Under the pieces are notes generated by a model. That model did not search any database. It had not been told where the DNA came from and saw nothing but the letters and a program-made list of their open reading frames with translations. A stretch of 63,992 nt of DNA, counting the filler, from Basidiobolus ranarum (Eukaryota), in NCBI GenBank assembly GCA_040143965.1. It is 4 parts of 4 records of this genome, joined end to end, with 100 filler letters (N's around TTAATTAATTAA, not from the genome) between each part and the next. Parts side by side here need not be neighbours in the genome. Positions count along the whole stretch, not along the records: positions 1 to 16,843 come from JASJQH010007203.1; 3 more parts are not named here. One strand, written 5' to 3'. A program made the position numbers and the translations under genes. Positions 799-58,288 of this stretch are shown here, in pieces (the first letter of the stretch is position 1; every line of letters starts with the position of its first letter).

Positions 799-2409
799 TT
801 ATTCCCATTCAATGGTGGAAGGAGGCTTGGTGCTGACATCGTAAACAACACGGTTAACACCCTTAACTTCATTGATGATTCTGCTGGAGATCTTCTTGAT
901 AACATCATAAGGCATAGGATACCAATCAGCAGTCATGAAGTCAGTAGTCTCAACGGCACGAAGGGCAATAACTTGCTCGTAAGTACGCTTGTCACCCATG
1001 ACACCAACGGACTTGATGGGGAGAAGAGCAGCGAAAGCTTGGCTGGTCTTGCGGTAAAGACCGGCCTTCTTGATCTCTTCAATGTAGATGTGATCAGCGA
1101 GACGAGCAATCTCAACTTGGCTGGGGGTAACTTCACCAAGAATACGGATAGCGATACCTGGTCCAGGGAAAGGATGACGCCATACAAGTTCATCATCAAT
1201 ACCCATAACCTTTCCAAGAGCACGAACTTCATCCTTGAAGAGTTCACGAAGAGGTTCAATCAACTTCAACTTCATATCTTCCAAAAGACCACCAACATTG
1301 TGATGAGTCTTGATGGTAGCGGAAGGACCCTTGAAAGAGATGGATTCAATAACATCAGGGTACAAGGTACCTTGAAGTAAGAACTCCATCTTACCTCTAC
1401 CGGTCTTCTCGGATTCAACATCGAGAGCAGCAGCTTCAGCTTCAAATACTTCAATGAAAGTATTACCAATGATCTTACGCTTCTTCTCAGGATCAGTAAC
1501 ACCCTTGAGTTTACCCAAGAAGAGATCAGCAGCATCAACGACCTTAAGGTTGATACCCAAGTGCTCACCGAGAATGGCCTTAACATTCTCACATTCATTG
1601 AGACGCATAACACCATTATCAACGAGAATAGCGTGGAAACGATCACCAATGGCCTCAGTCATCAACTTGGCGGCAACAGTGGAGTCAACACCACCAGAAA
1701 CGGCACCAACGACTTGAGCAGTAGGACCGACGATCTTGCGAATTCTTTCGATTTCTTTATCGATGAAGGTCTCCATGGTCCAGTTAGACTCGCACTCGCA
1801 AATGTCGATAACGAAGTTCTTAAGGAGGACCTTTCCTTGAGGAGTATGGGTAACCTCAGGATGGAATTGAATACCGAAAATGTGCTTCTCCTCATTGGCA
1901 ATGGCAGCGAAAGGAGCGGTAGTGGTGTTACCAATAACACGGTATCCCTTAGGGGGTTCGGACAATTGGTCACCATGAGACATCCAAACTTGCATCTGTC
2001 CTTCCAAGGTGTTGAAAAGACGATCGATGAAAGGATGTTCATCGTGCTTGGTGATGTTCAACATAGCATGACCGTATTCACGGTGATCGCAGGGAGCAAC
2101 CTTACCACCATTAACCCAAGTAATTTCTTGGAGACCATAGCAAATACCAAGAACAGGGACACCAAGGTCGAAAACGGCGGGATCAACGTGGGGAGCATCG
2201 GTATCGTAAACAGAATAAGGACTGCCAGAGAGAATAACACCCTTGGGCTTAAAAGGCAATTCGCTGATCTTTTGGGTGCAAGGAAGAAGTTCGCAATAAA
2301 CACCAACTTCACGAATACGACGAGTAATAAGGTGGGAGTATTGAGATCCAAAATCTAAAATAAGGACCGTGTCGTACAACTTTGAAGTATCAGCGGTATT
2401 GTTAGCCAT
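799..2409 (-). CDS. GUA1: GMP synthase (glutamine-hydrolysing), intronless
   Basis: GATase motifs [22 protein letters not shown] and QFHPEV; ATP-PPase motif SGGVDS; C-terminal KPPSTIEWE. Start placed at MANNT (ATG 2409). Confidence 0.98.
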
Positions 2410-5400
2410 TGTGAGATTAAGGGAAACGAACGAGAGAAAAAAATTGGCGTTGCCAAATTTTAAATCCCACTCGTTCTCTATTTCTACTCGAATCCATTTT
2501 TTTTTCTTCTTCGGTAGCCCATCAAATTTGGGTTTATCCAATTGAAGGGCTCGAATGCAGTGGGCTTTTTTTCAACAAATATCTTTTCAAGGTATCCAAT
2601 GCTCAAAGATTTTTTTATTTTCATACTAATTATGGCAATCGAGATGAAATTTAGCTTAATATTTTCCACAATTCCCGAATTTTTTTACTGCAAATTTTGG
2701 ATATTGCGGAGGATGGATCCAATGCAATTAAATGGATCTCCACCTTCATTCATGCCCCAAATAGCGCCCATGTATAGAATCCACAGATGTGCAGTGACTA
2801 ATTCCTAGTCTACATATATCGTTTGATTTGTTTTCGCCATGATGGGAACATTGTGGTCGATCTGCTTGTTTCGCCCGAGTACAGAATTACAACCCAAATC
2901 AAAGTTAATAATTAGCTGCAAATACAGCCAGGGATTCATGCACTCTTGGGTCCAATATATCGACCAATATCACACCAGAAGTGGACCAATGTTATTGCCA
3001 ATCATCAGCCAGTCAAATCCTTTTCAAATGACTGTATTGTCTTTCCTTACAGAGTAAGCGAATTCTCATGCCTTGATTAGCTCTGGGGATAAGTTAAAAT
3101 TAGCTTCACTCTGGATATCTAGTGTATAATATAAGGTGCAATTGTGGATACCGATTTTTTTTTCAGTCCTTACAATGAGCGTTGTCTCTTTGTTGTCGAT
3201 CAACCAAGCACAGATGAGAGCTTTGAAAGGAATCGTTGGTAAACACTGTTTATCACACTTCAACTAGCATTCACGATGCACTTCATTATCCGTCACTCTA
3301 TCTAAAAGTATGTGGTCATTTTACTAGTCTGACCTCCATTAGAGGTTCTATCTCTCCAGGTCCAAGCCGAAGCAGGGTCGACCCTGATAGAACTACGCCT
3401 TCTATTCAGTGACAACAGCATCCATTATAGCATTGAATTAAAATGGCATAGTGATGTCAATAGGCACCTTGCAAAATGTGTGAAAGGAAGCCTTGTTAAA
3501 ACTTTTCCACTAAGAAAGCGAATACTTGATGGCTTTGAATATCTGTGCTTGTATAAAGCAACATGACATAACATATTATATCGACAAACGACAGTAGCCT
3601 GGGCAAAGCCTGAGATGGAACTTCGTTCAAGTGAGGTTCTTTGTAGATCTTATGAAGATCAAAATACAATGCAGGGTCAGGAGAAATCAAAAAGATTCAA
3701 TTCGAGAAACCTCAAGTAACAGTCGATATTTACATGTTTGTTCCACAAGTCATAAGAATTATCAATCACATCCTATATAAGTATATATACCTGCTTAGCC
3801 AAATGGTTTTGAAACCTATTTGGTTAGTTGTTCATGTTGTAGTTGTAGAATAGGCTAAAGAGATTGAGACGAATGTGGTCACTGATAAGAATAAGGGCGC
3901 TTCGATATTACGGGATAAGAAGCTTCATTGTGAATTAACTGCTAAATGTAGCAAAGGTGACGAGGATGGTATAGAAGTTACATAATTTTTCGACTCTAAA
4001 TGTTTGCGGTTGGTTTCTGCGTTGCCAGGACTGGCAATGTCTTGCCTCTGTAGGTATATTCTCTTTTTACTATTTGCTCCAATATTTGATGAGGCTTGTT
4101 TTTTAATACAAGGAACTGTAACATATAACGTATAAAATCTACTTGATTATTCAAGCTAGTTGGTCCGAACTTACGAGGTTACGGTGTTTGTCATGGTACA
4201 GGTATTGTTCAATTGAAGGTTTCCTCTACCAGTTCAGTTCTATTTATTTGGCTACTTGTTACTTTGAAACGGATTGAAAGTATATTAGACAGCAAGGGTG
4301 GTGATTCTCTAGTTTTTCTCGTTTTGAGTGGTTTTAAGCCCCTTACTGCTAGACTGGTTATCGAACGAGAATAGGCAGATTTCGATATTTGACTAAATAA
4401 CATACTTCTATCTCTTGTGATACAACTGGAGACACTATTGAAGATCGTGTTTGCACTCCTACCTATCTCTGTCCATCATGGATGAGGTTTAATGAATATT
4501 CAATCAAGATGTGGCATTTGGTTAATATTATCGCCAAGTTCCAGAGCTAACTTCCTGGTTATAATGCTCTGATCACCTTGAGAGGTAGTTAATTTTCCCT
4601 GGAGGGTTTCAGTGACAATATCCACAAGGGGATCATCAATTCTCCGCTAAAAGCACACAAAAGGCTGAAGATGGTCACCACTGCGCTGATATTGCTCAAA
4701 TTGTCTAAAGAGTGTGCATCTCTTCGCAGCTTTATATACTGTTTATTATGCTTCCTCCACCAGTGCCCAAACACATCCATTTCCATATAATCATTATATT
4801 ATAAAAAAATTCAAAAATGTGTATCCTTTGAATTGCACCTTCGATATTTTACTAACTGTATCAGTTCTAAGGGTCACTAGCTTAAGTATGTATACAATGA
4901 ATAAAGCGTATATTTCGATTTCGTATGTGGAATGGTTTATACTTGAGCGCTAGTGGCGACCGATTTACTTTCGATCTTGTGAATCTTGAACGCTCAATTT
5001 TCTCTGAAAGTCTAGTAAAGTGTTAAATAGTAGAAAAAAGGAATCCAAGTACAAATGTCAGTTGTTGATCTAGATACCGTTCAGAAGACTGACTACATCT
5101 ACACCTATAGTTATATGTGGCAATACACTTGTAGAACATGAGCGTAAATTCCCCAATTCTAATCCAAAATGTTTAACTTATAGTCCGTGATAGATATAAA
5201 GTATATATAGTTAAGTAGATCCTACAACAATGAACATATCACTACTTACAAATCATTTACTTCCAATAATTCTTTTTATTACGTTGGTTATAGAAACCAG
5301 GGAAATAATAATGTAGCCCCGCAACAGTATTTAAAACACATTTTGAATTAATAGTTATAAGGGGGCTTTCTGAAGTTGAGATTTGACTCAGCAATCAATC

Positions 5401-11628: not shown

Positions 11629-12725
11629 TTGAGTGATGAGATGTGCTTCTTCTCAACACCTTTGGTGGTTCGGTTAATTAGTGAAGGAAGAGTACATTTA
11701 GGGGGTAATTCGCCTGATATAGGCTTTCATCTCCATTTGATATTTGTAAAATCACTTGTGGAACTATATATGGGAAAAATAAAGTTTGGAACCATACATT
11801 TAAGACAATTCCCAATGGCATGTGGGAGTTGAATTTCTATTGCGGTTTACTATTATTTTATAATATGGTTTCGGTCAAGGTGTGAAGGCTATGCCACCTT
11901 TTCACGATGTATCTGCTTGCTTGTGCTGCATACGAAATAGGGAATATCTAAGCAAATCCCAAAGCATGTTATGCATACAACTGCCTCCCTTTTATTGACC
12001 AACCTCTGTCAGATGGCTCAATTATTTCGATTCCTATTTCTCAGCAGAGTGCTAGGTAAAGGAATGAGCAGGAAGCATTAGGGCTATGGTAGTTTGCGAA
12101 GGTGTCAACTCAAAGGAGGGAATATATCTTAGCTCTAGTTGATTATCCTACTTTCTAAAACTAGCGCAGACATGTTCGGTGCTTGAACATCCCAATGGAT
12201 TTCTACATGAAACCCCTTAAAATCGAGAGTATATCAGAGGTGATGCTCCACTGTGCTAACAATATTGATTGCGAAGTGCTTATCAACACCATTAAAATGG
12301 ATTCGAGATAATGAGAACCCTTGGATGCGGTCACATAATGCAAAAGTAGTATCTGTTCCATCCATCCCTCATGGAGGTTTCCAAAACACCGAGAACTTGT
12401 GCCTACATACATGAAAATTCATTTTATATCCTGGGTTAGGTAAGTTGGAGTGGTGGAAGCGATGTATCGAGTACGTTTCACTTGTCAATGATCATGATAC
12501 TTCCAAATCTCTAACCATCGGGTTATTTGTGGTTTCAACGTAGGGGAAATAACAAATGGATTGGTGATAGACATACATTTAGCACCAGGAATAATATTGG
12601 ATGGTTTGGTCCGTGTATCAGATACTATCTAGCTTTTACGGAATCAATCAACATCTTCAAACGTTCCTCCCCTTTTCGCATTACGATGTAGCATGTTCAT
12701 GATTCTATCTCGATGGATTATTCTT

Positions 12726-12733
12726 ATATATAA
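12726..12733 (+). promoter_or_regulatory. TATA box upstream of the secreted repeat protein
   Basis: TATATAAG about 60 nt before ATG 12793. Confidence 0.45.
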
Positions 12734-12792
12734 GCATGGGTTTGAAATAACAATGGCAAATACGAACCTCGTTAGATCAACCACTTTGAATT

Positions 12793-14466
12793 ATGATGGT
12801 CAAGGTACTTCCAAGTGCTCTCGTATGGTTCGCCATGGTCAGTTACAGCTTGGCCGCGGAGGAGAATGACGGACCCATGACTAATCCTACTCCCACAACT
12901 CCTCTTGTGGATTTGGAGGGAGTGAATGAGGATAGTTACAAGGCCCCAAAAAATGCTGGATCTGGAATGTATGGTCAGTCCAACAGTAAAAAGGGGTCTG
13001 ATGGGCACGATCATGGATATGGCCATGGTCATGGTCATGATAACTCCTATGGAGAGAGCTCATGGAAGTATGTTACCAGAACGCTTCCTGGAACATATCG
13101 GCAGACCGAAATTCCATCAAAGCCGATCTACGTAAAGCAAAAGGTTATTGTACGAGAGGCTAGTTACAAAGAGGTGACCCATACTATGCCCGACTCTTAT
13201 AAAGCAACGGTGGTTAACCTTCCGCCAGTTGTCAAAACCAAGAAGATTGTAACTAGACCTGCTGGCTTCAAATATATAGAGAAGACTGAGCCGGGCTCTT
13301 ACGGCTACAAACCCTACAGGTTGCCAAATGGGTACAAAACTATAAAGTCGCTTACCAAGCCAAGTGGTTTTGCAACTGCCACCTTTAATCTTCCTGGTAC
13401 TGTTGTCACTCAAACTATTACTGGGCCTGAAACAACTGAAACTGTCAAAGTGGTAGATAAGCCTGGTGGTTATGGATATAAAACGGTCAATCTCCCAGAT
13501 CGTTATGAATATAAGAAGTTCACCACCCCCAAGACATACAAAAAACAAAAGTATGTTACAAGGCCCGCAAGCTACAAAGAAATAGAGAAGACTGAACCCG
13601 ACACCTTCACCTATAAACTTGCACCAGGTAAGAAGCAAGTCAAACTAATCAAGACAATTACGAAGCCAGGTGGTTACAAATATGTAACAGAGACTAGGCC
13701 CTCCACATATAAATATGAGAAAGTCAAGCTCCCTTCAAAGTTCAAGAAAGTCAAAGTAGTAACCAAGCCAGGAAGATATGTTGAGGTCAAGAAGACTGTC
13801 CCTTGTACCGATTGTACGAGAACAGTCACTTTGCCAGATACATATAAGACTATCAAGGTGATAACCCGACCAGCTGGATTCAAATACGTCAAAAGGACTC
13901 TTCCAGACACGTATGAGAAAAAAAGCTATACCACCGAGGATCGCTACGAGAAGAAAAAAGTACTAGTCAATGATGGTGGTTATAAGTACATCAAACAACA
14001 GGGACCGGTCACATATGTGAAGAAGAAGTACAAGCTACCTTTCAAGTATGAGAAATATATCGTCAAGGCTAAGAGTTACAAATATGAAACTGTAGTTAGT
14101 CCTGATCGTTACGACTATAAGACTGTGACACTCCCAGATAAGTATGAGAAGAAGAAGGTTGTAGTCAAGCCTGGTGGTTTCTCATACAAAAAGCAGACAT
14201 TACCTGACAGGTATATCACAAAGCCAATCAGGCTACCTGATACATACAAAACTGAGAAAGTGATTAAAAAGCCCGGAGGTTTCAAATATGTAAAGAAGGT
14301 CCTCCCAGGAACATACAAATACGTTAAGATTGCAGTTCCCAGTAAACCATATGGGTATGGACAGCCAAAGCCCAAGCCCGTATATGGACAGCCCAAGCCT
14401 AAGCCTGCATATGGACAGCCCAAGCCTGAACCTAGATATGGAGAATCCAAACCTGACACATACTAG
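12793..14466 (+). CDS. Secreted Lys/Tyr/Thr/Val/Pro-rich repeat protein (34-aa repeats, YGQPKPKP tail)
   Basis: Intronless 557-aa ORF. Hydrophobic signal peptide (..SYSLA|AEE), a His/Gly patch, ~12-13 degenerate 34-aa repeats and a 4-unit C-terminal repeat. Confidence 0.9.
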   Translation: MMVKVLPSALVWFAMVSYSLAAEENDGPMTNPTPTTPLVDLEGVNEDSYKAPKNAGSGMYGQSNSKKGSDGHDHGYGHGHGHDNSYGESSWKYVTRTLPGTYRQTEIPSKPIYVKQKVIVREASYKEVTHTMPDSYKATVVNLPPVVKTKKIVTRPAGFKYIEKTEPGSYGYKPYRLPNGYKTIKSLTKPSGFATATFNLPGTVVTQTITGPETTETVKVVDKPGGYGYKTVNLPDRYEYKKFTTPKTYKKQKYVTRPASYKEIEKTEPDTFTYKLAPGKKQVKLIKTITKPGGYKYVTETRPSTYKYEKVKLPSKFKKVKVVTKPGRYVEVKKTVPCTDCTRTVTLPDTYKTIKVITRPAGFKYVKRTLPDTYEKKSYTTEDRYEKKKVLVNDGGYKYIKQQGPVTYVKKKYKLPFKYEKYIVKAKSYKYETVVSPDRYDYKTVTLPDKYEKKKVVVKPGGFSYKKQTLPDRYITKPIRLPDTYKTEKVIKKPGGFKYVKKVLPGTYKYVKIAVPSKPYGYGQPKPKPVYGQPKPKPAYGQPKPEPRYGESKPDTY

Positions 14467-15200
14467 GTAGAGAAATTGGATCACAATCAATTTTCAAATT
14501 TTTGAGAATACAAAAATTAAGTAAATGTCTCATTGCTTTGTCATTAAGTTTTGTTCCTTGTGAATTGATATTGTGGCCCTTGAGTCAGAGACAATCGTGT
14601 TAAGAATAAACAATTCACACACAAATTTCGTTCTGCTGAGTGCTACGGCTTGCTGTTTGAGAACGTTTATACGAGAGCTATTCTCGGTGTAGAACAGCTG
14701 ACTTTGATGCCTAACTAGGATTATTGAAAATTCGGGCAACTCTTTCGGCAAATATCTTCAAGCCCTGGAGTCAAAATGATTTCCCTGTCTTTCGGTTATT
14801 ATTATGAAATATTTCCGATAAAATCCATATCGTCAACCGCCATGGCCTGATTTGGGGGTTTGACAAGTCGTATTTCGTGGTAGTTATTTGACCATACATC
14901 ACCAGAGTTGATCCGATCATAGATCTTATCGGACTCGATTTGAAAAGAAAATCTACTCCGAAAAGTTTGTTTACCTGGTTAGTAGACCATTCCGTAGCTA
15001 AAAGGATTTACGATTGTGATTCTAAAGTGTTCTGGATTGACTTTCTAGAATATAATCACCATTACAATCCATTCGGTAGTAAATTTTTAAAAATTTGAAG
15101 CGATTGGATAAGTCCTAATTCTCCCGGTTAACTTTTTTACAAGCGTAGCTTTTTAACCTTCTAAGCAGTGATTGACTGTTTGTGCATATCAACCTCATCA

Positions 15201-23322: not shown

Positions 23323-23953
23323 GCATAAAGATAGTCACCATTTGTACAGTACACTTTAGAATCAACGCAGCCAATCCTCTATATAAGAATAATATACATC
23401 GACCTGATGCCTTACTATATTTCGTCAATGAGCCTGTGGCATATACCAGGTATCATATTAAGCAAGTGATTTAAATAAACTGATGCAGGCCTATACTGGT
23501 CTCGGCTTCAGAAATCGGATTGATGATCCACAGCCGCCTAATTATATACACTTAATAATTATCGGCCCATTCCCATATGATTTGATCGATTAATCAATGT
23601 CACAGAGCTCCATCATCTAACAGGAATTGGATGAATCTGTGAATCCACGCAGAAGTAATCCTCACTAATCAGGAAAAAGGCTGCGCGTGGTTGACATGGA
23701 AAGAAAGATTCTTCCAAACAGCGAAAGAAACTAAAAATCGGCTCGGGGTTGTACATTTTGCCAGGTTTCGAATGGTCTCAAAGCAAAGAATACCAAACCA
23801 TATTAACTGGTCCAATGGGATAAATTATACATGCTTGATAGGCGTGATCTCAACATTTCTTTCGACCATACGAACCAGGTTTAAGGAGCCTCCTAAACCT
23901 TGTGCATGGCAATTTCATATAAAACCTTGCAATCTGCTTGTCTATCCCGGAAG

Positions 23954-25354
23954 ATGCCCGTCTCAACCATCAGCTCACCATCATACCCATTCCCCCAGGA
24001 GATCACTCAACGTATCATCCGGTGGTGTAGAGGTGATCCATGCGTATTAGCTGCCTGTTCTCAAGTAAATTTCCTGTGGTGTCAAAATGCATTACCACGG
24101 CTCTACTACGATCCTTGGTCTCAAGTGAAAACATTCACAAAAGCGGAGGAGAGACTGTTGCGCGCACGAATGCTTGTAGAAACATTGCTCTTGAGTCTTG
24201 TTAGTCACAACACGAGCGCCAAGCGAAAGATACTTTCTCAAGTATTCTCCAAATTTGTGAACCAGTTCGAGAGTAACTCACACTCACGAAAATTTCGACG
24301 ACCTCTAGCGATTGAGTACTTTTATTTGGTGCGAGAGTTTGATCTATCAATGATAGAAAAGGCATTGCATCTTGTAGATAGCAACATTCTCAAAGCTGCT
24401 AGTTCAACCTCTTTGAAGACTACAGAACTTAGCTTGCGTTGGTATCTAAATACCTTCAAGAAAAGATGTGAACCTGTTGAGAAGGTTGTTATTACGGAGT
24501 TACCTTTTTTTTGCTTTGAAGAGATTATTCCTTCTCTACAGAATTTTCCGCACCTGAGTCGTCTAGAACTATCTTCGCGCAACTCTTCACACCCCATCAA
24601 CGGCAGTCATCTGGCTTTGATTGCATTGGCTTGCCATCAACTTCAAGAGATCAAAATAGTGAATCCAGCTCGGCTCTCTTCCTGGTTGCGTACGATAACC
24701 GACGAAGATCTAAGCCTTGTCATTAATAGCCAAAGCAAAAATACCCTTCGTAAAATCCATCTTGAAGGACTAGTCATGGTTCCACTTAAGGCCACTTTGA
24801 ATTCATTGAGGCTCCAACACCCGGACTCTTTTCGCTCTCTTACGTTGAAGCAATGCAAGATTTCAGATCGAGGTGATTTTTCCATTCTAGGAGATTTCCC
24901 GAAGTTCGTTCAATTGGAATTCATAAATTGTGACAACTTAACGGATCAAGCACTTTTGGGGGCAGCTGCACGTTGCACTCAACTTCATACATTAAACTTG
25001 TCAGGTTGCTCTTCCGTTAGCTTCAGTACAATCGCCAAATTTATAGAAACTTCGAAATTCTCGTTACGTGACCTGGAATTTAAGGATATCCCGTATAACA
25101 CCGAGGAAGCTAGATCATCGCTAGCTAAATGTAACCACTTGAAAACACTAACATTAGGCGATAACATATCTATTCTGAAAGAGATGCAATCCTTAATATC
25201 AGATCTCTTGAACTCGTGCCCTCTTACGCAATTAGATCTCGGCCATGCAGAGATTGAATTGACCTCAGCCAAACAGTTCTACCATTACCCTAGACTCAAC
25301 ATGGTCAGTTTCAAGACTAACTCCAAGACACGATACACACTGAATTATGTTTAA
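23954..25354 (+). CDS. F-box/leucine-rich-repeat protein
   Basis: N-terminal F-box-like FPQEITQRII...LAACSQVNFLW...LY followed by LRRs (LHTLNLSGCSSV, LEFINCDNLTD). Start could also be at 23906. Confidence 0.82.
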   Translation: MPVSTISSPSYPFPQEITQRIIRWCRGDPCVLAACSQVNFLWCQNALPRLYYDPWSQVKTFTKAEERLLRARMLVETLLLSLVSHNTSAKRKILSQVFSKFVNQFESNSHSRKFRRPLAIEYFYLVREFDLSMIEKALHLVDSNILKAASSTSLKTTELSLRWYLNTFKKRCEPVEKVVITELPFFCFEEIIPSLQNFPHLSRLELSSRNSSHPINGSHLALIALACHQLQEIKIVNPARLSSWLRTITDEDLSLVINSQSKNTLRKIHLEGLVMVPLKATLNSLRLQHPDSFRSLTLKQCKISDRGDFSILGDFPKFVQLEFINCDNLTDQALLGAAARCTQLHTLNLSGCSSVSFSTIAKFIETSKFSLRDLEFKDIPYNTEEARSSLAKCNHLKTLTLGDNISILKEMQSLISDLLNSCPLTQLDLGHAEIELTSAKQFYHYPRLNMVSFKTNSKTRYTLNYV

Positions 25355-37237: not shown

Positions 37238-38670
37238 ATGGAGGTTAGTGAGTTTCTGAGGAAGTGTAAATTGGAGCAATATGCAGATACCTTTATCTCT
37301 GAAGGTTTTGATCAGCTCAAATCGGTAAGGGCTCTTGTTTCAATTGCTACTATGATGATACTTACTTTGGCTGCTTCAGCTTCTTGAGATAACAGAGAAT
37401 GATCTAGCTGCAATGGACGTTAAACGAGGCCATCGCAGGGTAATATTTCGAAGACGTTAAACATGGAAGGCTCGTTTAAATTAACTCGTCCTATCCCTAT
37501 TCATATAGCTATTACAGCGTGAAATAGCCAGTATCAGAGGGATACCTAGTTCTCATCCCATTGGCGTTCCATTGGTGCCTCCTGAAGGAACATTTATATC
37601 CCTGGGAGATTCTGGTAAAGCAAAATGTTTCTTTATTATCCCTTGTCCATTTTCGCAATCGTTTGACTCAGCCTCATTCTATTACATGTTCTGCTTCCTG
37701 ACTCAATTTTTGTCTTATCTCCTTAAGCAATGTCGATACCAATGCACCAACTTTCACCTACCTCAGGCGAAATGAGCTCGGATGCTAACGGAAATAAAAG
37801 AAAGTATAGACGACACCCTAAACCGGACAAGAATGCACCAGAGAAGCCGCCTTCTGCTTACGTGATGTTTTCCAACAAAGTTAGAAATGAACTCAAAGAT
37901 CAAAACATGTCATTTACAGAAATCGCAAAAATAGTTGGAGATCGATGGAAATCTATCAGTCCAGAGGAAAAGGACGAAGTAGAACGTAGTGCTGCCAAAG
38001 AGAAGGAAGAATATTACGAAATTCTAAACGCCTATAAAGAGACAGATGATTACAAGGTAATTCAATCTATTTCATCCAGATATTCCAATATATTTCATCA
38101 CTAAACCAGACATTAAAATCATCTTAGGAGTATCAAAAGTACTTGGAAGAATTTAGAAAGAAATCCGGAAGCTGTGGTAATTTATGATTTTCTCGTTGTT
38201 ATTTGGTATAAAAGGCAGTCGTTAAATTCCCATTTTGTTTACCATTAGTTCGACCTGTTGGGAGACCCAGAAAGCATCCCAAAATTGAAGATAGTTCAGA
38301 CACAGCATCTGTAATTCAACATACCTCCAATATTTCCAATGTCGTGAGTGTTCCCCATATTCCACATGTTACGGAGGTCTCAGGTATAACCCATGATCAG
38401 GTAATACAAAATACCGCGTCTCCACAAAGTCTTCAGAATGTGCAAAATGTTCAAGACCTTCGCAGCATCCAAGAAGCCCAAGGGGTACACGCCATTCAGG
38501 ATCTTCCGCACGTACAAAACGATGAGAAGCATCCAGCGTCGAATCATAGCAACAATCATGAGCAAGATATTAGCCTTGAATTCGTGGTCAGTCAACCAGA
38601 GCAAACTTGTATCTTAATCTAGCTTTTTTAACACAATTCTAATTAGCCTTATCCGTACATGCTGTTTTAG
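37238..38670 (+). CDS. SAM-domain + HMG-box + AT-hook protein (multi-exon; 3' end approximate)
   Basis: SAM: FLRKCKLEQYADTFISEGFD..LLEITENDLAAMDVKRGHRR. HMG: KRKYRRHPKPDKNAPEKPPSAYVMF...IAKIVGDRWK. AT-hook: VGRPRK. Confidence 0.88.
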
Positions 38671-51081: not shown

Positions 51082-52246
51082 CTAATTTGCTTGTGTGATA
51101 ATCTCATTTCCAGATTCGGTACATTTTTCTTCTTTTGCAATTCTTTTATAGCAATCTTTGCTTAAATGGCCAGTTCTTTTGCAGTAATCACAGAATATGT
51201 TACTTTTCTTCTTAAAGTGCTTTTGACCTTTATAGGATGGTTTCCAATAGCCTATGAAAGCATTTTCTTCATTCTTGTGTTTGGATCCCAATTTGCATAA
51301 ATCTTCATCCAGAGGTCTACCAAATACATAATTTCAGGTCAAATTTTCAGTTCTTGATTCTAGAGCTATTACTAGGCTCTGAAACTCATGTGGCAGGCTA
51401 TTCAGGACTGTAACTATGATATCCTGATCAGTAGTAGGTACTCCCATGCATTACATTTCATCCACTAAAATAGTGAGTCTATTAATTAGTGATTTAATTT
51501 CTTCTCCTGGCTTCATCTTGAAGTTAAAGAATTGTCTTCTTAGAAACATCTTGTTGGCAGCAGAACTTGCTTGGAAGGTGTCTTCCAAGGCTTTCCATAC
51601 CTTCTTGGCAGTTTTAGCTATTGAACATTGAATTAGCAATTTGTCTTTTACATAAAGATAAATTGTGTTAAAGGCACTTTGTTCTTTTTTAACCTGAAGT
51701 AAAGCTTTGGTTTCAGATAGTTTTGCATTGTTTTCTTCTCCTACAACAGTGTCCCAAAGTCCTTTTTCTTGCAGCAGCATCTTTATTTAAATTTTGCAAA
51801 CATGATAATTGGTTCTATCCAATTTTTCAGAGGAGGGAAAAGTTCCATAAATATGAGAAGTAGACATTACAGAGAGTGCAAGCTTGGGGCTCATAATCTG
51901 TTAAGATATTTGAAAGCCTGTTGGAAGTGGTTTGGAGAACTAGAGAAATTGGTGGCTTTAACTTGCTGATTTATTGAAGAGAAAATTGACATTTGTAGTT
52001 TTGTCAAGATGTAAGTAAACCAACATTTATAATGTGTAAAGAAAGGTTTGAGGAACATGTGTGCAAAGTTTGGGGCTTCTAGCACAAGTTTGAAAAATCT
52101 GTATATCTGAGAACTTCTAAGTTGGTAAAAATATTCTAAGTAAATTCCGATTGAAAATAGTGGATAGTATCTTAGTTCAATATAAGATAATTAAGTACTA
52201 AGCTATATATGACTATGTAGGTGTTTAGGCAATGCTAATTTCAACA
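51082..52246 (-). mobile_element. Degenerate Ty1/copia LTR retrotransposon: 5' LTR (51899-52246), PBS and gag pseudogene
   Basis: TG..CA LTR followed directly by GATTATGAGCCCC (copia-type PBS). Gag reads EKLDRTNY...MLLQEKGLW, TAKKVWKALE..F, VLNSLP.EF and CCHC knuckle CDYCKRTGHLSKDC, with in-frame stops. Confidence 0.92.
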
Positions 52247-54723: not shown

Positions 54724-57700
54724 ATGCCCTCGAAAGGTATGCAGTGTATTTCTCTAGAAGTTGGGTGTTCCTTCCCCACCGTCCCTTCATTCCCTCATTA
54801 ATTCAATGGTATTTTCGTCTATTAGGCCTGGAACAAAGCAGAACAAGTGTAGATACAAGTGTGGAGTTAGATGAATTTGGACGTGATATCAGCAGTAGGG
54901 ATACTTCACAGTACTCGCACTATCAATTTTAGTGAATTAACACCGATCTTGTTCTATTCTACTTAGGTCGGATTATAGAAAATGCTGACAGAGAAACCAC
55001 TCCTCGCCGACAAAAATCCCTGATTCGACCGGAACGTCGTCCAACCACTAGAAGATATCCCCAGAGAGGAGAAGTAGATTTTGATGAAACCACCGGTCGT
55101 CAAGATATTCTTGGAAGAAGTGACAGTTTTGCCATGCCAAAAAAGACGAAGAAAATCACGATGATTTCTAAATCCAAAAAATGTCCTACTTGCTGGGTGA
55201 TATTTACCAAGATCAGTACAATCTACGCTCCATCCCCATTATTGGTGTGCTGTGGTAAGTGAGACTCAGATATTCATACTTGGAAGTCAGCATGTGGTTA
55301 ATGACTGGCAATTTTGTAGGCTTAAAAACATCTGCAATTAGACAGGCTTGGAGGGAAAAGATGGCATTGTGTACGATTATCTTTTTGCTTTGCGTAGCTG
55401 TTGGTTTCTTAACTTTCGGATTTCAACAAGTGTTGTGCGGCTTTGACAATGTGGGCCGGGTTAAGCAGGGGACTATGAGTTTATCTGATGGCTCATTGAA
55501 TGGCAAAGCGATGAGATTAGAGGGACTGAATCATCCGGTAGCTCCCGGAGTCCCAGATGGAGGCAGCGTCGTTTCGACAGCGGGTGGCAAAGATATATCA
55601 TTTCTATTTCAAAATGTAAATGGCCGTTGTAAAGGGGTTCTCATCCCTACGACTGGTGCAGATAGCAACGGTAATGTAATCAACTATTTCCCTTGCATCA
55701 TTCGAGATACCAATACTACCGTAAATCCATCTGCTGATCCCGAAAGATCCGCTTGTCACTCCTCAGCTTTGGCTAGGAATACTCTTAAACGACTTGAGTT
55801 CGAGGGAGAGATCTATTACGACTGGAGCGATATTCGATCTGACCAAAGGACTATGGTTGTATATAATGGACATGTATTAGATTTTGATTTGATCTCATGG
55901 CTAGTTCCTGGGATCCAAGCACCATCCATATTTTATCAGCTGAAAGATCCCAAATCCCCATATCGTGGAACTGATGTAACCTACTTGCTCAACAATTTTC
56001 ACAGAGCCGAGGCTGATTGTGCCATGGATATCTTGAAAGTCGGGGTACTCGATACCACTAGTATGGGATGTATCATCTCCAATGTTGTTCTTTACGTCTC
56101 ACTTATCGTTATCCTTGGCGTAGTGTTGACCAAGTTCTTCCTTGCTGTCTTTTTCGGATGGGTTTTGAGCTGGCGTCTTGGCTCGTTCCGTGAGGAGACT
56201 TACGAAGAGCGTATGAAAAGACTCGAGGCTATTGAACAATGGAGTGATAATCCCAACAACTTGGCTATCGCTGCCTCTAGATCGAACAGTACGATCAATC
56301 ACAAAGTAAGCACAGGCTTCCTACCAACTACTAGCCGTTACTCATCCCCCGCCATGATTGCTGAATACAACAATAGACGGAATATGGGCTATCCTAGTCC
56401 ACTTGGCAATGAGAATAGGACTAAGATCAGCTTATCCTCCGCTTCTGCTAATAGATCCACACGAACCACTTCCACTCCACCAGACTCCCCACGCACTCTT
56501 TCCCGTCGCTCCTCACACAGTTCTTCCACTGCTGTATCCAACATCCATACGCCACCTACACCACCACCCGTCTCCTTCCAACCCTTCAATTTCCGCTTGG
56601 CCCATACTATCATGCTTGTTACATGTTATTCAGAAGGGGCGGAGGGAATGCGCACTACATTGGATTCGTTAGCCATAACCGATTACCCACAATCACATAA
56701 ATTGATACTGGTGATTGCCGATGGAGTCATTACAGGGAGTGGGAATGACATGTCAACGCCAGATATTTGTTTATCAATGATGAAAGATTTTGTGATTTCC
56801 CCAGAGAACGTCCAACCATTCTCATATGTAGCCATTGCTGATGGTTCCAAACGCCACAATATGGCCAAAGTGTATGCTGGATGTTATAAGTTCGATAACA
56901 ACACGGTTCCTCCGGAGAAGCAACAACGTGTTCCCATTATTTTAATCTCAAAGTGTGGTACTCCGGAAGAGGCCAGTACTCCCAAACCAGGGAATCGCGG
57001 GAAGCGTGACAGCCAAATCATTCTAATGTCCTTTTTACAACATGTGATGTTCGATGATAGAATGACAGAGATGGAATATGAACTATTCAATGCCATTTGG
57101 AGTACCACTGGTGTCAGCGCCGATAACTTTGAGATCGTACTGATGGTGGATGCCGATACTAAAGTGTATCCTGATTCGGTGACTCGAATGGTTTCCTGTA
57201 TGGTACGAGATCCGCAGATCATGGGTCTTTGTGGTGAAACGAAGATCGCCAACAAGAAAGATAGTTGGGTATCCATGATCCAAGTGTTTGAATACTACAT
57301 CTCCCATCACCAGAGCAAAGCATTCGAGTCAGTGTTTGGTGGTGTAACTTGCTTGCCTGGATGCTTCTGTATGTACCGAATCAAGGCTCCTAAAGGAGTC
57401 AATGGTCTATGGGTCCCAGTTCTCGCCAGTCCAGATATTGTTGAGCACTACTCAGAGAATGTAGTAGATACATTACACAAAAAGAATCTATATCTACTAG
57501 GTGAAGATCGATTCCTAACTACCCTGATGTTAAGAACTTTTCCCAAGAGAAAAATGGTATTTGTACCCCAAGCAGTATGCAAAACTGTGGTCCCCGACTC
57601 ATTTGGCGTACTCCTATCCCAACGTCGTCGTTGGATCAACTCCACTGTTCACAATCTTCTGGAGTTGGTTTTGATTCGTGACCTTTGCGGTACCTTCTGT

Positions 57701-58288
57701 TTTTCCATGCAATTCGTGGTGTTCATGGAATTGGTTGGTACTACGGTACTACCAGCAGCTATTTGCTTTACCATATATCTGATTGTTATCTCGTTCATTG
57801 TTACTCCGGTTCCGGTGATTCCTCTAATTTTGTTGGCAATCATCCTGGGCTTACCCGCAGTGCTGATCCTAATGACTACTCGTAAATTAGTGTATGTTGG
57901 TTGGATGCTCATATATTTAGTCTCTCTCCCAGTATGGAATCTTATCCTTCCCTTGTATGCCTTTTGGCATTTTGATGACTTCAGTTGGGGCCAGACTCGT
58001 ATGGTTGCTGGCGAAGCTGGTGGCGGCGGTGATCACAGTAAGAAAGAGGGAGAATTTGATTCAAGTCGGATCACCATGCGCAAGTGGTCAGATTTCGAGC
58101 GAGTCAAACGCCGTAAAGCTAACCATGTGTTATCAGGATTGAATAGCTATGGTAATTCCAACTCCTCTATCGAAAAGCTAGGCTACCATACCCCTAGTCA
58201 ACTTGCCCGATTCTCCTCATTCAATCTTTCAGCAAATCAAAGTGAAGCTGATAGTGACAGCACTTATAATAGCCGTAGTTCCAAGTAG
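54724..58288 (+). CDS. CHS3: Chitin synthase, class IV (Chs3-like; 4 exons)
   Basis: N-terminal RQKSLIRPER, AWREK, a cytochrome-b5-like region, TCYSEG, NRGKRDSQ, MVDADT, CLPGCF, LGEDR, SQRRRWINST, DDFSWG; no myosin head. Confidence 0.96.

What the first reader, a model, noticed from the sequence alone, without database searches (positions are those of the whole stretch)
12793..14466. Secreted Lys/Tyr-rich protein built from a cryptic 34-aa tripartite repeat: candidate fungal adhesive or cross-linked wall polymer
Seen: a signal peptide, an acidic linker and a GHDHGYGHGHGH patch precede ~430 aa of repeats such as KPGGYKYVTETR-PSTYKYEKVKL-PSKFKKVKVVT. Each repeat has three 11-12-aa subunits of the form P-x-x-[YF] followed by beta-prone K/V/T residues. 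There is one central CxxC (PCTDC) and a YGQPKPKP tail. The period is kept in the protein while the DNA has diverged, which suggests old selection on structure. Established: Tyr-X-Tyr and Tyr/Lys motifs mediate isodityrosine cross-links in extensins and DOPA-Lys adhesion in mussel foot proteins. From memory, the P-x-x-Y-K-T-V..V-x-x-P pattern also recalls long beta-repeat inserts in some bacterial peptidoglycan-binding proteins. Inference: this is an uncharacterised, very basic, beta-ribbon or fibre-forming extracellular protein, perhaps a spore glue or wall coat.
Basis: partly seen in the sequence, partly recalled or inferred. Interest (0 to 1): 0.72.

Follow-up and report, generated by a model that had tools for sequence, protein, structure and literature searches.

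The report
Orphan secreted lysine-tyrosine repeat protein
A gene of the frog-gut fungus Basidiobolus ranarum encodes an exported, strongly positively charged protein built from thirteen old copies of a 34-residue unit that matches no known protein family; it is probably a wall, matrix or glue component, but its role is untested.

Summary
Window 12793-14466(+) is an intact, intronless 557-codon ORF. It encodes a signal-peptide-like N-terminus, an acidic Pro/Thr segment, a His/Gly patch and 12.7 units of 34 aa. Each unit has 11+11+12-aa sub-units. One PCTDC and a YGQPKPKP-type tail follow. The lag-34 autocorrelation has z = 16.7. 27 of 38 sub-units start P-x-x-[YFW], against a shuffle mean of 4.8. 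Synonymous sites between units are saturated (pS 0.80, pN 0.47), yet 11 of 12 full units keep exactly 34 residues.

The organism is Basidiobolus ranarum: the flanking NAPRT ORF is 100% identical to an NCBI protein of that species.

No family or relative was found in Pfam, NCBIfam, PDB sequences, two word-indexed searches, an exhaustive phmmer search of 1.84 billion representatives, two metagenome scans or the ESM Atlas. A control showed that a 35%-identical relative would score E about 1e-25.

The beta-ribbon idea is not established. AF2 pLDDT was 44 and 35, the core lies on the disordered side of the charge-hydropathy plot, and there is no beta-type amphipathicity. Expression, localisation and Tyr chemistry could not be tested.

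Best reading: a lineage-restricted polycationic extracellular matrix or adhesive protein (confidence 0.48).

The parts
12725..12734 (+). TATA-like element TATATATAAG, 59-68 nt upstream of the start codon
   Evidence: Read directly. Consistent with a promoter, but such strings occur by chance in 39% GC DNA; not tested against chance.
12793..14466 (+). Complete single-exon coding sequence, 557 codons plus TAG
   Evidence: An in-frame stop lies just upstream. P(open by chance) is about 2e-14. pN < pS between units shows selection in this frame. Codon usage is like the neighbouring genes. The ESM Atlas holds the identical 557-aa sequence.
12793..12858 (+). Signal-peptide-like N-terminus (aa 1-22): MMVK, hydrophobic core, SLA|A
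   Evidence: Sequence. Hydropathy is 1.63 over aa 5-20, and the best 19-aa windows of the protein are at aa 1-3. No SignalP was available, so the cleavage site is inferred from the -3/-1 rule (general knowledge).
12859..13053 (+). Non-repeat N-terminal segment (aa 23-87): acidic Pro/Thr-rich part, then a Gly/Ser/Asn-rich part; net charge -6
13003..13038 (+). His/Gly patch GHDHGYGHGHGH (aa 71-82), a candidate metal-binding or pH-sensing site
   Evidence: Sequence. A 6-bp DNA repeat lies at 13011-13039. Metal binding is inference only.
13054..14346 (+). Array of 12.7 units of 34 aa (aa 88-518). Unit consensus: P-G-G-Y-K-Y-V-T-x-T-L / P-D-T-Y-x-Y-K-x-V-T-L / P-D-T-Y-K-K-x-K-V-V-T-K
   Evidence: lag-34 z 16.7; P12 in 12 of 12 units; K30 in 11 of 12; Y15 in 9 of 12; mean unit identity 35% aa and 46% nt; pS 0.80, pN 0.47.
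13801..13815 (+). PCTDC (aa 337-341), the only two cysteines. They replace the usual P-D-T-Y-x-Y of sub-unit B in unit 8
   Evidence: Any disulfide role is inference.
14347..14463 (+). C-terminal Pro/Lys/Tyr/Gln tail (aa 519-557) with about 3.5 nonapeptides of the type YGQPKPKPx; hydrophilic to the last residue
   Evidence: 27-bp repeat 14356-14456, 83-86% matches; QPKP three times; last 25 aa KD -2.1, so no GPI-type signal.
14605..14610 (+). AATAAA, about 140 nt after the stop codon
   Evidence: Read directly. Consistent with a polyadenylation signal; not tested against chance.

Best explanation
This is a genuine, native gene of Basidiobolus ranarum for a non-enzymatic, exported, polycationic repeat protein with no detectable relatives.

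Proposed working, step by step.
(1) Supported by sequence only: the N-terminal signal peptide takes the protein into the secretory pathway. With no membrane segment, no ER-retention signal and no GPI-type tail, it leaves the cell as a free polypeptide of about 61 kDa.
(2) Inferred: the 430-residue array carries net charge +62 and one aromatic residue in nearly every 11-12-residue sub-unit. It adopts an extended, non-globular but length-ruled conformation. It sticks by multivalent charge and by Tyr/Lys (cation-pi, hydrogen-bond) contacts to anionic extracellular material, either the fungus's own wall or spore-surface polymers or foreign surfaces. It thus acts as a coat, filler or glue.
(3) Speculative: the many Tyr (10 Y-x-Y, 25 [YF]K), the His/Gly patch, the single CxxC and the Gln/Lys/Pro tail provide sites for secondary curing, by oxidative Tyr coupling, metal bridges, disulfide or isopeptide links.

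The strict 34-residue length, kept despite saturated synonymous divergence, says that spacing itself is the selected property.
For: Real and native gene: open frame with P about 2e-14; pN 0.47 < pS 0.80 among units; codon usage equals the neighbours (Nc 52.9 vs 51.6, GC3 0.44 vs 0.42); TATA-like box, A at -3 and AATAAA; an identical protein record in the ESM Atlas.

Organism: flanking NAPRT is 100% identical to B. ranarum KAK9712698.1 and 82% to B. meristosporus.

Export: hydrophobic N-terminus with SLA|A; no other hydrophobic window (best 0.65); hydrophilic C-terminus; no KDEL/HDEL.

Non-enzymatic and non-globular: no Pfam, NCBIfam or PDB match; pLDDT 34.8-44.1; Atlas model pLDDT 0.34; charge-hydropathy H 0.407 against a boundary of 0.465.

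Polycation with regularly spaced aromatics: K93, Y56, pI 9.8, core charge +62; aromatic at sub-unit position 4 in 33 of 38.

Spacing under selection: 11 of 12 full units are exactly 34 aa, P12 is invariant and K30 is in 11 of 12, while nucleotide identity is 46% and pS is saturated.

[quoted passage not shown] Lys/Tyr/Pro repeat proteins are wall or glue components elsewhere (PRPs: PMC4020777 passages; extensin Tyr-X-Tyr cross-links: PMC4275275 abstract).
Against: There is no direct evidence of transcription, secretion, localisation or modification.

The window holds no tyrosinase, laccase, peroxidase or other cross-linking enzyme; the neighbours are housekeeping genes.

There is no wall-anchoring signal (no GPI, no Pir-type DGQ motif), so retention in the wall is assumed, not shown.

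No relative was found in the annotated B. meristosporus proteome, which is present in the searched collection. A conserved glue or wall role in the genus would predict one. However, the query itself is also missing from that collection, so the collection is incomplete.

Codon bias gives no hint of the very high expression usual for bulk structural proteins.

Low pLDDT for an orphan without an alignment does not prove disorder.

I found no paper describing such a fungal protein, so the functional class rests on analogy.
Confidence: 0.48

Rival explanations
1. Ordered beta-repeat rod or fibre. Each 34-aa unit folds into a three-stranded mini-sheet (as proposed for the 36-aa Als tandem repeats), or the 38 strands form one long single-layer meander or solenoid. 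Function would then come from the fold: a stiff spacer, or hydrophobic or amyloid-like self-association.
For: There are three sub-units per unit, each starting with a turn-type P-G-G or P-D-T and followed by V/T/Y/I-rich residues. The length is strictly conserved. The low-confidence AF2 block model places strands in 6 of its 9 sub-units and no helices. Als repeats of 36 aa are described as three-stranded antiparallel sheets (PMC10144551, passage).
Against: pLDDT was 44.1 and 34.8, with none of the 102 or 557 residues at or above 70. The full-length model shows only two short strands. There is no beta-type amphipathic signal (z -1.4 to -1.8 at 150-180 degrees) and the core is on the disordered side of the charge-hydropathy plot. 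Both faces of the putative strands carry conserved Lys (K5, K18, K28, K30), which leaves no plausible solenoid core. There is no Pfam hit to the Als repeat or to any beta-repeat family.
Confidence: 0.2
2. A soluble secreted polycation aimed at other organisms and not at the fungus's own wall. It would agglutinate or permeabilise gut bacteria, or bind host polyanions (mucus, glycosaminoglycans) in the amphibian/reptile gut or in infected tissue.
For: Net charge is +60 in the mature protein, with no anchor signal. There are two XBBXBX-type basic clusters. Basidiobolus lives among dense gut bacterial communities (PMC10964425, abstract only).
Against: No similarity to any antimicrobial or lectin family. 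The protein is far larger and more regular than known cationic antimicrobial proteins (general knowledge). A regular Tyr/Pro spacing kept over saturated divergence is not explained by a need for charge alone.
Confidence: 0.12
3. The hydrophobic N-terminus is not a cleaved signal peptide. The protein would work inside the cell as a polyanion (nucleic acid or polyphosphate) binder or as a condensate scaffold.
For: No signal-peptide predictor could be run. Very basic Lys-rich repeat proteins often bind nucleic acids (general knowledge).
Against: The N-terminus has the canonical n-h-c layout with small residues at -3/-1, followed by an acidic mature end. No NLS-type or RNA-binding domain was found. 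The two Cys form a CxxC, and the Thr/Pro-rich N-terminal segment is typical of exported proteins (inference).
Confidence: 0.06
4. Dead or never-expressed ORF: a decaying orphan with no present function.
For: No relatives were found anywhere. The exact sequence is absent from the 15-billion-protein collection that does hold the neighbouring gene's product.
Against: A 558-codon open frame has a chance probability of about 2e-14. pN is well below saturated pS and some positions are invariant. The start context, signal peptide and stop are intact. The ESM Atlas holds an identical gene call.
Confidence: 0.05
5. A precursor cut into many short peptides: a Kex2-processed repeat protein, like the Ustilago repellents (recalled) or the KEP class.
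For: It is a secreted tandem-repeat protein.
Against: There is only one KR and no RR in 557 residues, and it is not at unit borders. Unit borders are K/R-P, which is unfavourable for Kex2 (general knowledge).
Confidence: 0.03

Closest known systems
Tandem-repeat (TR) region of Candida albicans Als adhesins (36-aa Thr-rich repeats; PMC10144551, passages read)
   Same: It is a fungal, exported protein. The repeat length is nearly the same (34 vs 36 aa) and is thought to comprise three short strands. The repeats are Thr/Val-rich, present in many copies (13 vs 5-35), and linked to adhesion to surfaces.
   Different: No sequence relationship: no Pfam hit at E <= 10. There is no N-terminal Ig-like ligand-binding domain, no amyloid core/T region, no Ser/Thr stalk and no GPI anchor. 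This protein is polycationic (17% Lys, 10% Tyr), whereas Als repeats act through hydrophobic surfaces. The fold is not predicted with confidence.
Plant proline-rich wall proteins and extensins (PPVYK/PPVEK decamers; Tyr-X-Tyr cross-link motifs; PMC4020777 passages; PMC4275275 abstract)
   Same: These are secreted, basic, Lys/Tyr/Val/Pro-rich tandem-repeat proteins without enzymatic domains. Y-x-Y motifs are present (10 here). The C-terminal YGQPKPKP nonapeptides resemble PRP-type Pro/Lys/Tyr repeats. Those proteins become insoluble in the wall.
   Different: This protein has one Pro per 11-12 residues instead of 2 per 5. There is no PPVYK, PPVEK or SPPP. The unit is 34 aa with three sub-units. 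It comes from a different kingdom, and no homology was found. Hydroxyproline and peroxidase cross-linking are unknown here.
Mussel foot protein 1 and related DOPA/Lys adhesive or coating proteins (decapeptide repeat; papers seen as search listing only)
   Same: The composition is dominated by Lys, Tyr, Pro and Thr. The protein is very basic, secreted, and built of many tandem units with Tyr next to Lys (25 [YF]K, 14 KY). Predictions suggest it is non-globular.
   Different: There is no decapeptide and no matching motif. The units are old and diverged (46% nt identity), not recent near-identical copies. DOPA formation is unknown, and no tyrosinase lies nearby. The organism is a fungus, not an animal.
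Fungal Kex2-processed repeat proteins
   Same: A secreted fungal protein made of tandem repeats of a few dozen residues, orphan-like in distribution.
   Different: It lacks the defining dibasic cleavage sites between units: one KR in total.
P0002, a 235-aa singleton ORF from a metagenome contig, the only database hit (E 7.8e-4)
   Same: It shares an 11-residue rhythm with T-V-T-x-P-x-x-Y-like sub-units, at 32% identity over 124 aa.
   Different: It has no signal peptide. It is Trp/Arg/His-rich, not Lys/Tyr-rich. Its period is 22 aa and nearly perfect, with no 34-aa unit. The score is a repeat-on-repeat match at the significance limit, so I do not accept it as a relative.

Membership tests
Als adhesin tandem repeat (Pfam Candida_ALS repeat; accession recalled as PF05792) | Sequence match to the 36-aa Als repeat model | tested here: not met
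   The Pfam scan at E <= 10 returned only bMG10 (E 0.01, 16.5 bits, below the 26.2 cutoff), DUF4766 and CFAP61_dimer. There was no Als repeat.
Als adhesin tandem repeat (Pfam Candida_ALS repeat; accession recalled as PF05792) | Architecture: N-terminal Ig-like binding domains, T region, Ser/Thr stalk, GPI anchor (PMC10144551) | tested here: not met
   The N-terminal non-repeat part is only 65 low-complexity residues with no domain hit. The C-terminus is hydrophilic (KD -2.1 over the last 25 aa).
Plant PRP / extensin | PPVYK/PPVEK pentamers or Ser-Pro(3-4) blocks | tested here: not met
   0 PPVYK, 0 PPVEK, 0 SPPP, and a single PP in the whole protein.
Plant PRP / extensin | Tyr-X-Tyr cross-link motifs | tested here: met
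   There are 10 Y-x-Y motifs. Their presence says nothing about actual cross-linking.
Mussel-type DOPA adhesive proteins | Post-translational Tyr to DOPA conversion and quinone/metal curing | not testable with these tools
   This needs mass spectrometry or a redox-cycling stain on native material. No tyrosinase gene lies in the 64-kb window, and no whole genome is held.
Mussel-type DOPA adhesive proteins | Short (about 10 aa) near-identical tandem repeats rich in Pro/Hyp, Tyr, Lys | tested here: not met
   The unit is 34 aa (11+11+12), with mean identity 35% aa and 46% nt. The decapeptide motif is absent.
Kex2-processed repeat proteins (KEPs) | Dibasic KR/RR sites between repeat units | tested here: not met
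   There is one KR (aa 367) and no RR.
   The best NCBIfam hit has E 7.1. Pfam has none above cutoff. 0 bacterial hits at E <= 1e-3 among 1.84e9 representatives. The PDB profile search found 0.
Beta-solenoid / single-layer beta-sheet repeat folds | Confidently predicted regular beta architecture with one coil or hairpin per repeat | tested here: inconclusive
   AF2 gave pLDDT 44.1 (block, 4-row alignment) and 34.8 (full length). Strands appear only in the low-confidence block model. No fold search was run, because models this poor give meaningless matches.
GPI-anchored or Pir-type fungal wall proteins | C-terminal hydrophobic GPI signal, or Pir DGQ-type repeat | tested here: not met
   The C-terminus is hydrophilic, and there is 0 DGQ.

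The most novel reading that the evidence does not exclude
The protein is the long-unknown proteinaceous glue or wall cement of Basidiobolus: the adhesive cap of capilliconidia or a layer of the thick zygospore wall. On this reading it is a length-ruled polycationic Tyr/Lys polymer that is secreted as a fluid and then cured by oxidative Tyr coupling and His-metal bridges. That would be an independent fungal invention of the chemistry used by mussels, trematode eggshells and plant walls. Because its internal repeats are old, unannotated orthologues should then exist in other Basidiobolus genomes.
Probability: 0.12. Interest if true: 0.7.

Novelty: new variant of a known kind. Interest (0 to 1): 0.38.

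Why it matters
If the protein is an extracellular coat or glue, it would be the first molecular handle on how Basidiobolus spores stick to arthropod carriers or build resistant walls. Basidiobolus is a gut symbiont of amphibians and reptiles and an occasional human pathogen. Such a protein would also be an independent example of Lys/Tyr-based biological adhesion in fungi, of interest for biomaterials.

It is also a clean case of a protein whose repeat length, more than its sequence, is conserved over saturating divergence. That invites a structural explanation.

As it stands it is one more uncharacterised orphan repeat protein. The value lies in the testable predictions, not in a demonstrated function.

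Tried and rejected
(1) An alignment of overlapping five-unit segments (A1) was useless, because MAFFT aligned the identical overlaps. I replaced it with non-overlapping blocks (A2 and A3).

I sent the 102-aa block alignment instead and got 0 hits.

(3) A 102-aa (three-unit) super-period was suggested by the lag-102 peak. I rejected it: unit pairs at distances divisible by 3 are no more alike than others (0.362 vs 0.340, permutation p 0.11).

(4) Homo-oligomer prediction with three copies of the 102-aa block gave no verdict (score 0.00 against a mark of 0.32; the controls were not run and my alignment was not used). It counts neither for nor against self-association.

(5) The ESM Atlas gave a best feature score of 0.81 for the whole protein (arthropod DUF4816 clusters) and 0.79 for the core. 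All structure rows had TM <= 0.22 by query. These are at chance level by the tool's own calibration.

(6) The bMG10 Pfam hit (E 0.01, below cutoff) and PDB 8i6k (E 0.75) were dismissed as noise.

(7) I did not accept P0002 as a relative.

(8) Metagenome scans gave 221 and 374 pattern matches, with 0 confirmed.

Paralogues, oxidase genes and expression therefore could not be examined. tblastn of the protein on the window found no second copy.

(10) The scan's earlier notes held nothing by place, sequence, relatives or the word 'tyrosinase'.

(11) Literature: no paper combined fungal spore wall, dityrosine, lysine-rich and tyrosine-rich (0 papers). The searches on entomophthoralean conidial adhesion and on Basidiobolus with tyrosinase/laccase gave nothing relevant in their listings.

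(12) An amphipathic alpha-helical 11-mer reading (apolipoprotein-like, recalled) was rejected. Each sub-unit begins with Pro plus Gly/Asp, and the moment near 100 degrees is only z 1.8.

(13) I did no fold search, because both models were below pLDDT 50.
Full report
WHAT IS THERE

Window 12793-14466(+) holds an uninterrupted ORF of 557 codons. An in-frame stop lies directly upstream of the first ATG. With the window's stop-codon frequency of 0.055, the chance of 558 open codons is about 2e-14.

The gene has a TATA-like TATATATAAG at 12725-12734, an A at -3, an out-of-frame upstream ATG at 12753, and an AATAAA at 14605-14610. Codon usage is indistinguishable from eight conserved ORFs of the same window (Nc 52.9 vs 51.6, GC3 0.44 vs 0.42). 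So it is a native gene, with no sign of extreme expression or foreign origin.

Two long ORFs on the opposite strand (13120-13644 and 14118-14462) have no Pfam hit. I take them to be by-products of the biased codon content.

ORGANISM AND SURROUNDINGS

The window is fungal. It carries a class-IV-type chitin synthase, GMP synthase, an eIF2B/5-domain gene, a DEDDh exonuclease (immediately upstream, minus strand), nicotinate phosphoribosyltransferase (NAPRT, immediately downstream), malic enzyme, a CNT nucleoside transporter, an HMG-box gene, an amino-acid permease, PEX11, a copia gag fragment, a metallophosphatase and fumarase.

The NAPRT ORF is 100% identical over 99% of its length to an NCBI protein named Basidiobolus ranarum (KAK9712698.1). 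It is 82% identical to that of B. meristosporus CBS 931.73. This confirms, independently, what earlier unchecked notes of this scan said about the genome.

No oxidase, transglutaminase or wall-assembly gene sits next to the target. The neighbourhood gives no functional hint.

ANATOMY OF THE PROTEIN

- aa 1-22: MMVK, then a 12-residue hydrophobic core, then SLA|A. This is a textbook signal-peptide layout. The strongest hydropathy windows of the whole protein are here, and nothing after residue 30 exceeds 0.65.
- aa 23-87: an acidic Pro/Thr-rich stretch and a Gly/Ser/Asn-rich stretch (net charge -6), ending in GHDHGYGHGHGH (aa 71-82).
- aa 88-518: 12.7 units of 34 aa.
- aa 519-557: about 3.5 nonapeptides of the YGQPKPKPx type, hydrophilic to the end. 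There is no GPI-type signal and no KDEL/HDEL.

Overall composition is K93, T61, Y56, P55, V52 and G41, with only two Cys (PCTDC, aa 337-341). The mature pI is 9.8 and the core net charge is +62. There are no N-glycosylation sequons, 10 Y-x-Y, 25 [YF]K, and a single KR.

THE REPEAT IS REAL AND HIERARCHICAL

Residue autocorrelation of the core peaks at lag 34 (identity 0.328, z 16.7 against 300 shuffles). It also peaks at lags 68, 102 and 11 (z 11.6, 13.2 and 9.2). Proline spacing reads 11-11-12 again and again.

In register, the unit consensus is P-G-G-Y-K-Y-V-T-x-T-L / P-D-T-Y-x-Y-K-x-V-T-L / P-D-T-Y-K-K-x-K-V-V-T-K. P12 is present in 12 of 12 units, K30 in 11 of 12 and Y15 in 9 of 12. Of 38 sub-units, 31 begin with Pro, 33 have an aromatic residue at position 4 and 27 match P-x-x-[YFW]. 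In 1000 shuffles the mean was 4.8 and the maximum 11.

A further 102-aa super-period is not supported (permutation p 0.11).

THE REPEAT IS OLD, AND ITS LENGTH IS WHAT IS KEPT

TRF finds no 102-bp DNA repeat. Units are on average 46% identical in DNA and 35% in protein. The proportion of synonymous differences is 0.80, which is saturated, while that of non-synonymous differences is 0.47. Yet 11 of 12 full units have exactly 34 residues and the twelfth has 32. Internal shifts compensate (9+14, 7+4).

By contrast, the 27-bp tail repeat is 83-86% identical in DNA, so it is young.

The constraint is position-specific and not merely compositional.

NO FAMILY, NO RELATIVES, WITH A SENSITIVITY CONTROL AND A CAVEAT

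- Pfam: nothing above cutoff (best bMG10, E 0.01, 16.5 bits against 26.2).
- NCBIfam: best E 7.1.
- PDB sequences: 0 hits with the block profile, and one hit at E 0.75 with the protein.
- Word-indexed search of 5.8 billion clusters: 0 of 8000 scored candidates. With the block profile against longer proteins: 0 of 7992.
- Exhaustive phmmer over 1.84 billion representatives: one hit at E 7.8e-4. This is a singleton 235-aa metagenome ORF with a near-perfect 22-aa Trp/Arg/His-rich repeat and no signal peptide. It matches only through a shared 11-residue rhythm, and I do not accept it as a relative.
- Metagenome contig scans: 221 and 374 pattern matches, none confirmed.
- ESM Atlas: best scores 0.81 and 0.79, inside the tool's stated chance range.

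Control: one half of the array finds the other half at E 1.1e-25 with the full library size, and 0 of 200 shuffles are reported. A protein built from this repeat would have been seen even at 35% identity.

Caveat: the exact query sequence is itself absent from the 15-billion collection, although the neighbouring gene's product is present and the ESM Atlas holds the query letter for letter. The collection is therefore incomplete for this very species. Absence from the B. meristosporus entries may be an annotation or sampling gap. Eukaryotic genome DNA could not be searched with the tools offered.

STRUCTURE: NOT RESOLVED

AF2 on a three-unit block, with a four-row alignment made from the protein's own non-overlapping blocks, gave mean pLDDT 44.1 and pTM 0.21. 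It showed six strands, each within one 11-12-aa sub-unit, and no helix. Full-length single-sequence AF2 gave pLDDT 34.8. The Atlas ESMFold model has pLDDT 0.34.

The core lies on the disordered side of the charge-hydropathy boundary (H 0.407 vs 0.465). Chou-Fasman averages are nearly neutral (alpha 0.96, beta 1.03). The hydrophobic moment shows no excess at beta angles (z -1.4 to -1.8 at 150-180 degrees).

Conserved lysines fall on both faces of any putative strand, which argues against a packed solenoid core.

The strict length conservation nevertheless argues for a regular geometry. I read the protein as extended and non-globular, with turn-like P-G-G and P-D-T punctuation. I leave an ordered three-strand-per-unit ribbon as the main rival. 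A homo-oligomer prediction returned no verdict and is not used as evidence.

HOW IT MOST LIKELY WORKS

Supported by sequence: entry into the secretory pathway and release without a membrane or GPI anchor.

Inferred: a 430-residue polycation with an aromatic residue every 11-12 positions binds multivalently to anionic extracellular material and forms a coat, filler or glue.

Speculative: curing through Tyr oxidation, His-metal bridges, the single CxxC, or Gln/Lys links in the tail.

The biology offers places for such a material. Members of the Basidiobolaceae form capilliconidia whose beak is covered with adhesive material, and zygospores with thick two-layered walls (PMC13370150, passages). 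Nothing ties this gene to either.

Rivals are: an ordered beta rod; a soluble polycation acting on bacteria or host polyanions; an intracellular polyanion binder; a dead ORF; and a peptide precursor. The last is essentially excluded by the single KR.

COMPARISON WITH THE KNOWN

The protein works, at most, like three known kinds.
- Als tandem repeats: 36 aa, three-stranded, surface adhesion (PMC10144551).
- Plant PRPs and extensins: PPVYK/PPVEK repeats and Tyr-X-Tyr cross-links (PMC4020777; PMC4275275 abstract).
- Mussel-type Lys/DOPA proteins: papers seen only as a search listing.

It is a member of none. The defining motifs or architectures were tested and not met.

I found no paper describing a Lys/Tyr-rich repeat protein of a fungal spore wall or glue (one search returned 0 papers; two searches listed nothing relevant). 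These searches cover only the open-access library.

VERDICT

By sequence it is an orphan, and by likely role it is a new variant of the widespread class of Lys/Tyr/Pro-rich extracellular repeat proteins.

Interest is moderate (0.38). Orphan low-complexity secreted proteins are common in fungal genomes and no functional evidence could be obtained. The old, length-ruled repeat and the possible link to the unknown Basidiobolus spore adhesive make it a reasonable candidate for a simple expression and localisation test.

Noticed in passing
window 37727-38101 (+): An HMG-box ORF (PF00505, E 1.9e-14). In zygomycete fungi the sex locus is built around HMG-box genes (recalled). The flanking ORFs had no Pfam hit at 1e-5, and I did not check for the usual TPT/RNA-helicase neighbours.
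   Followed up: no
window 51454-51786 (-): A fragment of a copia-type LTR retrotransposon gag (PF14223, E 6e-25). It is isolated, with no long pol ORF nearby among ORFs of at least 110 aa.
   Followed up: no
window 23897-25351 (+): A 485-aa open frame with no Pfam family at E <= 1e-5. By eye the sequence looks leucine-rich-repeat/F-box-like. Otherwise uncharacterised.
   Followed up: no
window 1381-2355 (+), opposite GMP synthase at 802-2571 (-): A 325-aa stop-free frame antisense to the well-conserved GMP synthase gene. Most likely a spurious shadow ORF.
   Followed up: no
window 12793-14466 versus the protein collections: The exact 557-aa product is missing from the 15-billion-protein collection, although the product of the gene 700 bp downstream is there as a B. 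ranarum NCBI entry and the ESM Atlas holds the 557-aa sequence. Either this gene is not called in that annotation or the collection drops it. This is a warning for 'orphan' claims on low-complexity proteins.
   Followed up: partly
window 14356-14456 (+): The C-terminal nonapeptide tail is encoded by a young 27-bp DNA repeat (83-86% matches). This contrasts with the saturated divergence of the 102-bp units. The two repeat systems of the gene have very different ages.
   Followed up: partly
window 55259-58285 (+): A large chitin synthase with a CHS4-like domain (PF03142 E 3e-281, PF22997 E 3e-19). It lies 41 kb from the target, and no link to it is implied.
   Followed up: no
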